This document shows positions 36,001 through 39,000 of a stretch of 40,207 nucleotides of DNA, in pieces. Position numbers: made by a program. Each line of letters begins with the position of its first letter. Within the stretch, counting starts at the first letter, position 1. Source of the DNA: Enterobacteria phage CUS-3; the sequence record CP000711; one strand, given 5' to 3'.

Positions 36001-39000
36001 GTATTCGCAACAAAAATAACCTACTAATAAAACCAACATAAGGAACCACCCATGATTTACGCAATCGCGGGAGGCGCTCGCATGGGTGCCTTCCAACTAA
36101 ATGAATCTTTACTTGAACGAATCACCCGTAAATTACGTGACGGATGGAAAAGAGTTGAGGTCTTATTATGCGCAATGAAATAGCCATCAATCACCAGATG
36201 CTTCGTGCTGCACAGAACAAAGCAGTAATAGCCAGATTTATTGGTGATTCCAAAATGTGGCTTGAAGCAAATAAAGCGATGAAATCAGCTATCAACCTTC
36301 CGTGGTATCGCAGGAAATGAGTTTTACAGATAACTGGTCAGACGAAGAATTCATTCGTCAGATTAAAGAATTAATCGGTAACGAAGGAGATATTCATGTC
36401 ACTTGCAACCACAGTGAAGGAGAGCAAGTTACAGAGACGCATGTACACGCAGAAAGCTCTCTGGTATCGCCATAATGGTGACCGCGAAGGAATGCGGGTA
36501 TGCCTTAATTTGTCCCGAGTCGAAGTATTAAATCAGCGTTATTTCCTTGGGCCGTGTCCATTCTGAGAGCAATCATATGAGCAAAGAATTTTACGCAAGA
36601 CTGGCAGCTATTCAGGAGAATCTGAACGCGCCAAAGAATCAGTACAACTCATTCGGCAAATATAAATACAGAAGCTGCGAAGATATTCTTGAAGGCGTTA
36701 AGCCGTTACTGAACGGTCTGTTTTTATCAATCAGCGATGAAGTTGTGTTGATTGGTGATCGGTATTACGTGAAAGCCACGGCAACTATTACCGATGGCGA
36801 AAACAGTCATACGGCAACCGCTCTTGCACGAGAGGAAGAAAGCAAGAAAGGAATGGATTCTGCACAAGTTACGGGAGCTACAAGCTCTTATGCACGCAAG
36901 TATTGCCTCAATGGTTTGTTCGGCATTGATGATGCGAAAGATGCAGATACAGACGAGCATAAACATCAGCAGAACGCAGCAGCAAAGCAATCAAAACCAT
37001 CACTTACACCTGAACAGGTTCTAAAAGCATTCACTGACGCAGCAATGCAGAAAAACACCGTAGAAGAGCTTAAACAGGCGTTCGCCAAAGCGTGGAAGAT
37101 GCTCGAAGGGACGCCGGAGCAGCACAAAGCGCAGGACGTTTACAACATCAGACGAGACGAATTAGAAGGGGCAACTGCTTAATGGCACATTCGATTACAG
37201 TAAGACTAAACAAACCCGCAAGAGAGTTTCAGGGCGGGGAAAATATCGGATTCAACATCCGTGCTGGCGTTCAGTATTACGATCGCCAGACAAAAAAGAA
37301 AGAATGGACAAACTACAGCGCCGTTGTATTTGCCAAGCCGGGAGCGCAAGCGGATTACTATCGTAGCGTTCTGGTTGAAGGAGGCATTGTAGAAATTACC
37401 GGAGAAAACATCAGGGTTGATGTTTATCAGGGGCAAAATGGTCAATCAATCACTCTTGAATTACTGAATGCAAAGATTGGATTTGCAACTTCAGGAAACA
37501 GCCAACAGCAGCAAAGTAGCAATCATCAAAATAATCCTGAATACGACGATTCCATCCCATTCTGATTTAGAAAAATAAGGATTTAATTATGCCAGCGCCT
37601 TTGTATGGTGCGGATGACCCGCGCCGCTGTTCCGGCAATTCCGTATCGGAGGTGCTGGATAAATTCAGAAAAAACTACGATCGAATAATGTCTCTACCGC
37701 AGGAAACGAAAGAGGAAAAGGAATTTCGCCACTGTATATGGCTTGCAGAGAAAGAAGAACGCGAGCGAATTTACCAGACATCAATCCGACCATTCCGCAA
37801 AGCCACATATACCCACTTCCCTGAATATATCGACCCGCGCCTGCGTAATTACCGCTCACGCTATGGCGCTATCAGTAATGACTGAGGAATTTACCATGAG
37901 AGGACTTGCTTAAGAGAAAGAGTTTCGGTTCTGTTAATGACAACAAATATCTGAATGCGATGTGGCGGAGTGGGAAGAAATGAAACAAATGTCACTAATT
38001 GAGATGGATGGTTTTCTGAAAGGTAAATGCATCCCAAGTGATTTAAAGGTTAACGAAACAAACGCTGAATACCTTGTCCGTAAGTTCGGTGAACTTGAAT
38101 CAAAACTGGAAACGGCGTTGCGGGAGTGTAGTTCTGCTGGAATCACGATTGATAACCTTGAGGCTAAATGCGCGAAGATGGCTGCTGAAAATACCTCACT
38201 TAAGCAATCTGAGAAGGAATTTAATGACTTTTGTCGTGAGGAGTTTAGCGAATGGGAAGATGATGTTACTGAAACCCCAGCCACCGATGCTTTTCTGGCT
38301 GAAGTGCGGGCGCAGGGGGTGGATGCTGCTATAGAAGCTGCAAAAAATCTGGTGGCCCAAGAATATGAGTATAAGGATTTCAAAGCGGCGCAGAGTGATT
38401 GCTGTATGCACCCTGGTTCAGACCTGGTAGGGAAGGTTGAAATGACTGAGTGGTTAGTTGACTTTGCTGCCCAGCTTCGCAAAGGAGGCAACCAGTGACT
38501 GTATGTCTTATTGATAAACGTCGACGTGGGCAACAAATACCATCTGTTGAAATGCCGAATCACACATGGTTTTGCGTACTTGATATCGATGGTATGGATA
38601 CGTTGGTTGACACTCGTCATTACTGCGATACCGCAACAGCTACTCCGGCGAAAGCAAAGAAAATGGCTGCTCTGATAGAAAACTGGACTCCACCTGATGG
38701 TTGGTGCAATGGGAATGATCGAGATTGGCACGAAAAAATGAAGGGCTATATCTGCGATTTTTTACGTAAATGCAACGGCTTCAGGGGGATGTGATATGAC
38801 CAAAATTAACTATCAGGCACTGCGTGAGGCGGCAGAACGTGCAATTCCGGCAATGGAACGCCTGTTAATGTTGCCAGTTGATGATGATTTGTTAAGTGAA
38901 CAGGAACTTAAGGATTACGGTGTGGATATTGATGCGCTCAACGCCTTCAAATTTCTGACCGGACCAGAAACCGTGCTGGCGCTGCTGGATGAACGGGAAA

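What the first reader, a model, noticed from the sequence alone, without database searches (positions are those of the whole stretch)
37182..37565. Phage SSB carrying the host-like acidic C-terminal tail
The 127-aa protein ends in PEYDDSIPF, mirroring the E. coli SSB C-terminal tip that recruits host replication and repair proteins. A phage SSB with this tail encoded directly after erf suggests the phage hijacks host SSB-interacting partners for recombination-dependent replication.
Basis: partly seen in the sequence, partly recalled or inferred. Interest (0 to 1): 0.4.

Follow-up and report, generated by a model that had tools for sequence, protein, structure and literature searches.

The report
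Diverged phage SSB paired with Erf

Summary
Window 37182-37565 (+) encodes a 127-aa protein ending PEYDDSIPF; its ATG overlaps the erf stop codon (TAATG). The window is Escherichia phage phiv205-1.

The protein is an SSB-type OB fold (aa 1-106, pLDDT >90) followed by a disordered Q/N-rich linker and an acidic tip. All top PDB fold matches are SSBs or PriB. Pfam misses it and RefSeq calls it "hypothetical" in 579 of 5,426 complete E. coli genomes. It is 94% identical to HK97 gp40, which a 2025 paper named "SSB-1b" from its predicted fold alone.

The tail is conserved:
- 80 of 101 full-length homologues end in -PF.
- 85 of 122 non-redundant family representatives carry an SSB-type tip.
- pN/pS is 0.06 for the tip against 0.17 for the linker.

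The "hijacks host partners" reading is plausible but untested. What I found points at least as strongly to the phage's own Erf. The last ~42 Erf codons plus the SSB gene form one mosaic cassette, replaced in P22 by a different Erf C-terminus plus abc1. IPF tips always pair with one Erf C-terminus type, PPF tips with another, and tip-less SSBs with unrelated ones.

Verdict: a known kind, under-annotated, of modest interest.

The parts
36396..36566 (+). Small ORF (56 aa) in the position that arf occupies in P22, upstream of erf
   Evidence: phrog_1723 E 9.4e-36; present in 79 of 80 close loci. No DNA similarity to P22 arf was detected.
36577..37182 (+). erf: Erf single-strand annealing protein, 201 aa
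   Evidence: PF04404 ERF E 3.5e-44, residues 5-141; phrog_155 E 5.9e-57; residues 1-152 are 90% identical to P22 Erf.
36994..37179 (+). Erf C-terminal domain (aa 140-201): predicted three-helix bundle. The part after codon ~159 (from 37054) belongs to the same mosaic cassette as the SSB gene.
   Evidence: AF2 pLDDT 88.7, helices at model residues 6-19, 23-36 and 42-61. Only 31% identity to P22 Erf over aa 153-201, against 90% upstream. DNA similarity to P22 ends at 37053.
37164..37171 (+). Shine-Dalgarno-like AGAAGGGG, 10 nt before the SSB ATG, inside the end of erf
   Evidence: Read directly from the sequence. With the TAATG overlap it suggests translational coupling (inference).
37182..37490 (+). 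SSB OB-fold domain (aa 1-103)
37491..37535 (+). Disordered Q/N/S-rich linker (aa 104-118)
   Evidence: pLDDT <50 from aa 107. Length and sequence vary greatly among homologues. pN/pS 0.167.
37536..37562 (+). Acidic C-terminal tip PEYDDSIPF (aa 119-127), SSB-Ct type
   Evidence: Conserved as [FYW]-D-D-x-[IP]-P-F in 80 of 101 full-length homologues and in 85 of 122 non-redundant representatives. pN/pS 0.064 although pS is 0.33.
37563..37565 (+). SSB stop codon TGA
37589..37885 (+). abc2: anti-RecBCD protein Abc2, 98 aa
   Evidence: PF11043 E 4.3e-62; phrog_656. DNA similarity to P22 resumes at 37579, at 90% identity.

Best explanation
The gene encodes a strongly diverged bacterial-type SSB of the HK97 gp40 / "SSB-1b" family. 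It belongs to the early-left (PL) operon recombination module: small ORF, Erf, SSB, Abc2. It is probably translated in step with Erf. Its OB domain coats single-stranded DNA at phage DNA ends resected by Abc2-modified RecBCD and at replication forks. Its flexible tail presents the tip ...EYDDSIPF. The most likely main client of that tip is the phage's own Erf, docking through its C-terminal three-helix bundle, so that Erf is loaded onto SSB-coated DNA for single-strand annealing (genome circularisation and recombination-dependent growth). Because the tip is almost the same as the host's, host SSB clients can probably bind it too. Shown here: ORF, fold, architecture, tail conservation, purifying selection, module context, cassette inheritance. 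Inferred: ssDNA binding, oligomeric state, Erf-tip contact, host contacts.
Against: There is no experiment on any member of this family; PMC12315714 says so explicitly. The match between tip type and C-terminus type is not phylogenetically independent: the PPF/type-B set is essentially one clade. Adjacent sequences are also inherited together regardless of function. The P22-type Erf C-terminus is a diverged homologue of the window type, although P22 has no phage SSB. The Erf C-terminal bundle has no significant structural match, and the Red-beta C-terminal domain was not among the top 50 (best E about 1), so the Red-beta analogy is architectural only. HK620 Sak4 is a different kind of annealase. 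Family members also sit next to Rad52/22-type annealases, Gp157/Gam-like proteins or coiled-coil proteins. The curated SSB models are not passed.
Confidence: 0.6

Rival explanations
1. One reading: the tip mainly recruits host SSB clients (PriA, RecO, RecQ, ExoI, the chi subunit of Pol III and others) to phage ssDNA, driving replication restart or recombination-dependent replication with host machinery. Erf does not read the tip.
For: The tip matches the E. coli SSB tip at 5 of 9 positions, with two conservative changes; the IPF end, two aspartates and the preceding aromatic residue are kept. The tip is under purifying selection. An IPF-type tip is ancestral across the family, including members not next to Erf. 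A 2026 preprint proposes that a different phage SSB-like protein with an FDDDIPF tip interferes with host ExoI/SbcB.
Against: Host clients of the tip are inferred from E. coli SSB biology only. The Serratia/Rahnella clade carries ...WDDxPPF tips, whereas Enterobacterales host SSBs end in DDDIPF (my own knowledge, not tested here), and that change travels with a change in the Erf C-terminus. Some Erf-linked members have lost the tip altogether. The host SSB already supplies this tip in abundance, so an extra copy needs another rationale.
Confidence: 0.25
2. The tip acts mainly within the protein or as a decoy. Either it folds back on the OB domain to tune ssDNA affinity and cooperativity (as described for E. 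coli SSB, T7 gp2.5 and T4 gp32), or it titrates host nucleases such as ExoI away from phage ssDNA ends.
For: The acidic tail of E. coli SSB interacts weakly with its own DNA-binding site, as cited in PMC5928155. The linker here is very short (about 15 residues), which would keep the tip near the OB domain. The preprint on Bas52_0087 proposes competition with SbcB.
Against: Self-regulation needs acidity but not the strictly conserved IPF/PPF end. Nothing here addresses nuclease titration.
Confidence: 0.1
3. It is not a working SSB: either another OB-fold protein (PriB-like, for example) with a coincidentally SSB-like end, or a decaying gene.
For: No Pfam hit at E <= 1. TIGR00621 scores only 19.1 bits against a cut-off of 53.95. 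PriB appears among the fold matches. Broken copies exist: HK97 has a tip frameshift and HF4s a frameshift in the OB domain.
Against: pN/pS is 0.07 over the OB domain across 75 alleles. Aromatic residues occupy the four DNA-stacking positions. The full SSB architecture is conserved across a 213-representative family. The gene has a constant position in recombination modules.
Confidence: 0.05

Closest known systems
HK97 gp40 = "SSB-1b" of lambdoid recombination modules (PMC12315714, Genome Res 2025); HK75-type module (anti-RecBCD + SSB + annealase, no nuclease)
   Same: Orthologue: 93.7% identity, same position between erf and abc2.
   Different: The paper assigned SSB function from the AlphaFold 3 fold alone, and the passages I read do not discuss the C-terminal tip. 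The reference HK97 sequence has a 1-nt insertion that turns ...YDDSIPF* into ...YDDSNPILI*, so the tip is invisible there. The window's copy is intact.
E. coli SSB (PF00436 / TIGR00621 bacterial SSB family)
   Same: OB fold, aromatic residues at the four DNA-stacking positions, disordered linker, acidic ...DDxIPF tip.
   Different: Below all curated sequence thresholds. About 15-18% identity in structural alignments. The linker is about 15 residues, against about 55 in E. coli SSB by my own knowledge. A family profile finds only 213 of 1.84 billion representatives, so it does not reach canonical SSBs. Oligomeric state unknown.
HK620 SSB (HkaK, "SSB-2") with Sak4 (PMC5928155)
   Same: A phage SSB in the slot between the annealase and abc2 of a P22-like recombination module. 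Its C-terminal tip (NDYPPF) resembles the host tip and is required for annealase loading and stimulation. The PPF ending recurs in the Serratia/Rahnella branch of the present family.
   Different: A different SSB family according to PMC12315714, and the partner is an ATP-dependent RecA-like Sak4, not Erf. Sequence relationship not tested here.
Lambda Red-beta C-terminal domain binding the SSB C-terminal tip (review PMC11611040)
   Same: An annealase with an N-terminal annealing domain plus a small helical C-terminal domain. [quoted passage not shown] Erf here has a confidently predicted three-helix C-terminal bundle.
   Different: No detectable fold or sequence match between the two C-terminal domains. 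Red-beta uses the host SSB; here the phage brings its own.
P22 recombination module (arf-erf-abc1-abc2)
   Same: Same gene order. Erf residues 1-152 are 90% identical and abc2 is 90% identical at the DNA level.
   Different: P22 has the unrelated abc1 in the slot after erf and a diverged Erf C-terminus (31% identity).
Bas52_0087, SSB-like trigger of DRT10 defence (bioRxiv 10.64898/2026.04.29.721553)
   Same: [quoted passage not shown]
   Different: It has two OB domains, is much larger and comes from a different phage. Relationship to this protein not tested.

Membership tests
Bacterial-type SSB (PF00436 / TIGR00621) | Passes the curated sequence model threshold | tested here: not met
   No Pfam hit at E <= 1. 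TIGR00621 scores 19.1 bits against a cut-off of 53.95, E 0.0013.
Bacterial-type SSB (PF00436 / TIGR00621) | OB fold of SSB topology | tested here: met
Bacterial-type SSB (PF00436 / TIGR00621) | Aromatic ssDNA-stacking residues (E. coli W40, W54, F60, W88) | tested here: met
   hhalign places Y32, W42, F50 and Y82 opposite them. Y32 and F50 are invariant and W42 nearly invariant in A1. The roles of the E. coli residues are from established knowledge, not retrieved here.
Bacterial-type SSB (PF00436 / TIGR00621) | Disordered linker followed by an acidic tip ending in IPF | tested here: met
   conserved in homologues.
Bacterial-type SSB (PF00436 / TIGR00621) | Homotetramer (or equivalent four-OB unit) and high-affinity ssDNA binding | not testable with these tools
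   Only single-chain prediction was available, and no biochemistry.
SSB-1b (HK97 gp40) of lambdoid recombination modules | Sequence homology to HK97 gp40 | tested here: met
   93.7% identity over 127 aa.
SSB-1b (HK97 gp40) of lambdoid recombination modules | Located inside the recombination module of the early-left operon, next to an annealase and an anti-RecBCD gene | tested here: met
   Erf upstream and Abc2 downstream. Same order in HK97 and in 79 of 80 IMG/VR loci.
PHROG 44 (single strand DNA binding protein) | Profile match | tested here: met
   E 3.4e-29, residues 2-127.
Annealase-SSB tip coupling (Red-beta/SSB, Sak4/SSB-HK620 type) | Physical binding of the annealase to the SSB C-terminal tip | not testable with these tools
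   Indirect support only: cassette co-inheritance and the match between tip type and C-terminus type.
Annealase-SSB tip coupling (Red-beta/SSB, Sak4/SSB-HK620 type) | Annealase C-terminal domain homologous to the Red-beta C-terminal domain | tested here: not met
   Foldseek of the Erf C-terminal model against the PDB: no hit below E = 1, and Red-beta was not in the top 50.
P22 Abc1 | Sequence similarity to P22 Abc1, the occupant of the same slot | tested here: not met
   BLASTP finds no alignment at E <= 100.

The most novel reading that the evidence does not exclude
Erf's C-terminal three-helix bundle is a dedicated reader of the SSB tip, and phages of this group carry "Erf C-terminal domain + private SSB" as an exchangeable specificity cassette. 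IPF and PPF tips would then define matched classes. The phage would privatise the SSB-to-annealase hand-off instead of depending on host SSB. That would also explain why Erf-family recombinases transfer poorly between hosts unless their own SSB is supplied.
Probability: 0.35. Interest if true: 0.5.

Novelty: new member of a known kind. Interest (0 to 1): 0.3.

Why it matters
Practical value more than conceptual surprise.

(1) The gene is present in about 11% of complete E. coli genomes and in many Salmonella, Citrobacter, Cronobacter and Serratia prophages. It is labelled "hypothetical protein" by RefSeq and missed by Pfam. It can be annotated with confidence as an SSB that has a canonical SSB-Ct tip.

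(2) Erf is the least understood of the classic phage annealases, with no structure and no known SSB interaction. The Erf C-terminal domain / SSB cassette gives a concrete, testable hypothesis for how Erf is loaded. It also suggests a design rule for Erf-based recombineering: co-express the cognate SSB-1b.

(3) Phage SSBs with host-like tips are emerging as triggers or modulators of defence systems, so knowing which prophages carry one is useful.

Tried and rejected
- **Sequence searches that gave little.** Pfam on the SSB gave nothing at E <= 1. Sequence search of the PDB gave only marginal SSB hits (E 0.036 for the single sequence, about 0.5 for the profile).
- **Is the SSB a diverged P22 Abc1, since it occupies the same slot?** Rejected: no similarity.
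- **Is the Erf C-terminal domain a Red-beta-like domain?** No significant fold match, so only an architectural analogy remains.
- **Supplementary tables of PMC12315714.** They would list module types per phage, but they are not held.
- **Structure prediction of Erf with alignment A2.** I replaced it with a homologue search and an alignment of C-terminal segments only.
- **First related-loci scan.** It returned only loci at least 97% identical. A second scan led by distant members gave the needed diversity.
- **One paper search failed** on a Greek letter.
- **Registration check of the window against L001** was off by one base and is disregarded.
- **Promoter and terminator scan** showed nothing inside erf-ssb-abc2.
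- **Minus-strand ORFs across the gene** (37206-37445, for example) were judged spurious. I did not test them directly; the plus-strand frame is conserved and under purifying selection.

Full report
**1. The observation**

ATG at 37182 overlaps the upstream stop codon in the sequence TAATG. There are 127 codons, the stop is at 37563-37565, and the product ends ...NNPEYDDSIPF. A purine-rich AGAAGGGG lies 10 nt upstream.

The upstream gene (36577-37182) is Erf (PF04404, E 3.5e-44). The downstream gene (37589-37885) is the anti-RecBCD protein Abc2 (PF11043, E 4.3e-62).

Of 753 stop-delimited segments of at least 30 aa in the six frames of the window, this is the only one ending in [DE][DE]x[IP]PF. 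BLASTP against E. coli SSB aligns only the tail, EYDDSIPF against DFDDDIPF.

**2. Origin of the window**

The region is 100% identical to Escherichia phage phiv205-1 (MN340231, Lederbergvirus). That record calls the gene "hypothetical protein".

The same module occurs at 95-97% nucleotide identity in HK97, HK106, HK633, HK446, HK544, Sf101, HF4s and many Stx-converting phages. The gene itself is present at 90% nucleotide identity or more in 579 of 5,426 complete E. coli genomes. Every listed hit is annotated "hypothetical protein" next to "ERF family protein".

**3. Is it an SSB?**

*Sequence evidence*
- Curated sequence models say no or barely. Pfam gives no hit at E <= 1. TIGR00621 scores 19.1 bits against a cut-off of 53.95.
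- The remote-homology family PHROG 44 ("single strand DNA binding protein") matches at E 3.4e-29.
- A profile of 40 homologues aligns to E. coli SSB with 92% probability over the core of the OB fold.
- In that alignment the four aromatic residues that stack on ssDNA in E. coli SSB fall opposite Y32, W42, F50 and Y82. Those residues are W40, W54, F60 and W88 (established knowledge, not retrieved here).
- Y32 and F50 are invariant and W42 nearly so in the family alignment.

*Structure evidence*
- An AlphaFold2 model built on that alignment is confident for residues 1-106 (pLDDT >90). It shows a beta-barrel with one helix. Residues 107-127 are disordered, with pLDDT <50.
- Foldseek against the PDB returns only bacterial or mitochondrial SSBs and PriB in the top 50, at E about 1e-4.

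*Published annotation and family size*
- The protein is 93.7% identical to HK97 gp40.
- A 2025 survey of lambdoid recombination modules named gp40 "SSB-1b". It did so on the basis of an AlphaFold 3 fold resembling bacterial SSB, with at most 15% identity to the ES18 SSB.
- The same paper states that these proteins have not been studied experimentally (PMC12315714).
- An exhaustive profile search of 1.84 billion 50%-identity representatives finds only 213 family members at E <= 0.001. This is a small clade that sequence methods do not connect to the very large canonical SSB family.

**4. Is the tail conserved?**

Yes.
- Among 101 full-length cluster representatives from the first search, 65 end in IPF or IPY, 12 in PPF and 3 in another xPF. 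Four carry DIPF followed by a short extension.
- Of the 17 without a tip, three are single substitutions (ILF, ITF) and one is a frameshift. The other 13 belong to a distant, apparently marine branch.
- Among 122 non-redundant representatives of at least 115 aa, 85 carry an SSB-type tip.
- The linker varies freely in length and sequence.
- Across 75 distinct 384-nt alleles, pN/pS is 0.073 for the OB domain, 0.167 for the linker and 0.064 for the tip. The tip holds even though synonymous divergence at that end of the gene is high, with pS about 0.33.

The tip is therefore a selected, ancestral feature of the family. It is the standard SSB architecture, not a special mimicry acquired by this phage.

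**5. Context and mechanism**

*The mosaic cassette*
- The module (small ORF, erf, ssb, abc2) is kept in 79 of 80 close IMG/VR loci; the 80th showed only part of erf.
- In P22 the slot after erf is occupied by abc1, with the same overlapping start and stop. Abc1 is unrelated to this SSB.
- Window and P22 DNA align over erf codons 1-159 at 79% identity, and again from 37579 (10 nt before abc2) at 90%.
- Nothing is detectable between 37054 and 37578.
- At the protein level, Erf residues 1-152 are 90% identical to P22 Erf, and residues 153-201 only 31%.
- So the last ~42 codons of erf and the whole ssb gene form one mosaic cassette.

*The reciprocal case*
- In locus L100 the Erf annealing domain is a different ERF subtype (PF04404, E 3.4e-22).
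- Its C-terminal domain and the PPF-tipped SSB are the same types as in Serratia locus L004.

*Tip type against Erf C-terminus type (170 loci)*

| SSB tip | Erf C-terminus type | Loci | Unique pairs |
|---|---|---|---|
| IPF | A ("AFAKAWKMLEG") | 150 | 65 |
| PPF | B ("AWTKxxLAG...ELELP") | 5 | 4 |
| IPF with type B, or PPF with type A | crossed combinations | 0 | 0 |
| No tip | unrelated C-termini | 4 | 3 |

The tip-less SSBs still follow an Erf.

*The Erf C-terminal domain and its precedents*
- The Erf C-terminal 62 residues are predicted with pLDDT 88.7 as a three-helix bundle.
[quoted passage not shown] - Taken together, the most economical reading is that Erf is a client of this tip.

*Caveats*
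- The association is not phylogenetically independent.
- Physical linkage alone would produce co-inheritance.
- The Erf bundle has no significant structural match, and the Red-beta domain is not among the top hits.
- Family members also sit next to Rad52/22-type annealases, Gp157/Gam-like proteins and a coiled-coil protein.

**6.

Recruitment of host SSB clients is plausible. The tip differs from the host's only at F to Y, D to S and two upstream positions. A recent preprint proposes such cross-talk with ExoI for another phage SSB-like protein with an FDDDIPF tip.

It is not tested here, and two observations sit awkwardly with it as the main function. First, the PPF branch co-varies with the Erf C-terminus; I did not check the host SSB tips of that branch. 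Second, some Erf-linked members have lost the tip. I treat the two readings as complementary and rank Erf docking first.

**7. Novelty and verdict**

A phage SSB with an SSB-type tip next to an annealase is a known kind, and this family already has a name in the literature. Three details are new:
- The tip itself. It is masked in the HK97 reference by a 1-nt insertion.
- Its conservation and the selection acting on it.
- The cassette formed by the Erf C-terminal domain and the SSB gene.

Interest is modest (0.3). The finding is correct, useful for annotation, and yields a testable hypothesis about Erf loading.

Noticed in passing
L002 (HK97, NC_002167) 2385-2774; aligned with window 37500-37600: The reference HK97 gp40 has one extra A (TCC-ATC becomes TCCAATC). 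This changes the end from ...YDDSIPF* to ...YDDSNPILI* (129 aa) and destroys the SSB tip. It is either a real lab-strain mutation or a sequencing error from 2000. It would explain why the tip was not noted for gp40.
   Followed up: yes
L003 (HF4s, MT833387) 2383-2778: The HF4s copy is split by a frameshift inside the OB domain into a 94-aa "ssb protein" and a small ORF that still encodes ...EYDDSIPF. Similar frameshifted copies occur among prophage homologues (P0086, P0116). Some copies are therefore decaying.
   Followed up: partly
window 35058-36027: The homologue of HF4s gp36 is split by a frameshift at about 35395-35399: residues 1-114 and 113-322 match in two different frames. HF4s gp36 is a 322-aa coiled-coil protein annotated as similar to phi80 Agt / Gam antitoxin. 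It is either a pseudogene or a sequence error.
   Followed up: partly
L092 2657-3487 and L110 175-882: In two distant loci, the gene immediately upstream of the SSB-1b homologue is not an annealase. It is a coiled-coil protein (phrog_1376) whose C-terminus (...IAKNLIQNVTINY) resembles the end of the window's 35383-36027 ORF (...AIVKGEVFATKITY). A functional link between this protein and the SSB is possible but unexplored.
   Followed up: no
L007 4443-5372 and L008 3906-4835: In metagenomic phages with an Erf and a tip-less SSB-1b, an RdgC-domain protein (PF04381, 309 aa) lies two genes downstream. This is a recombination-associated DNA-binding protein inside a phage recombination module.
   Followed up: no
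window 37054-37578 versus P22 (L010) 26934-27381: A sharp mosaic junction lies inside erf, after codon ~159. The Erf N-terminal domain and abc2 are shared with P22, but everything between is replaced. This is a clean example of domain-level mosaicism in a lambdoid recombination module.
   Followed up: yes
E. coli RefSeq genomes (H86-H93, for example NZ_CP033092.2 1525569-1525952): PGAP labels this SSB "hypothetical protein" in the listed hits. 579 of 5,426 complete E. coli genomes carry the gene, up to four copies per genome. This is a systematic annotation gap.
   Followed up: partly
L093 2964-3488; L095 1093-1578: SSB-1b homologues with IPF or LPF tips also follow a Rad52/22-family annealase (PF04098) or a Sipho_Gp157 / Mu-Gam-like protein (PF05565). 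The family is therefore a general recombination-module SSB and not specific to Erf.
   Followed up: partly
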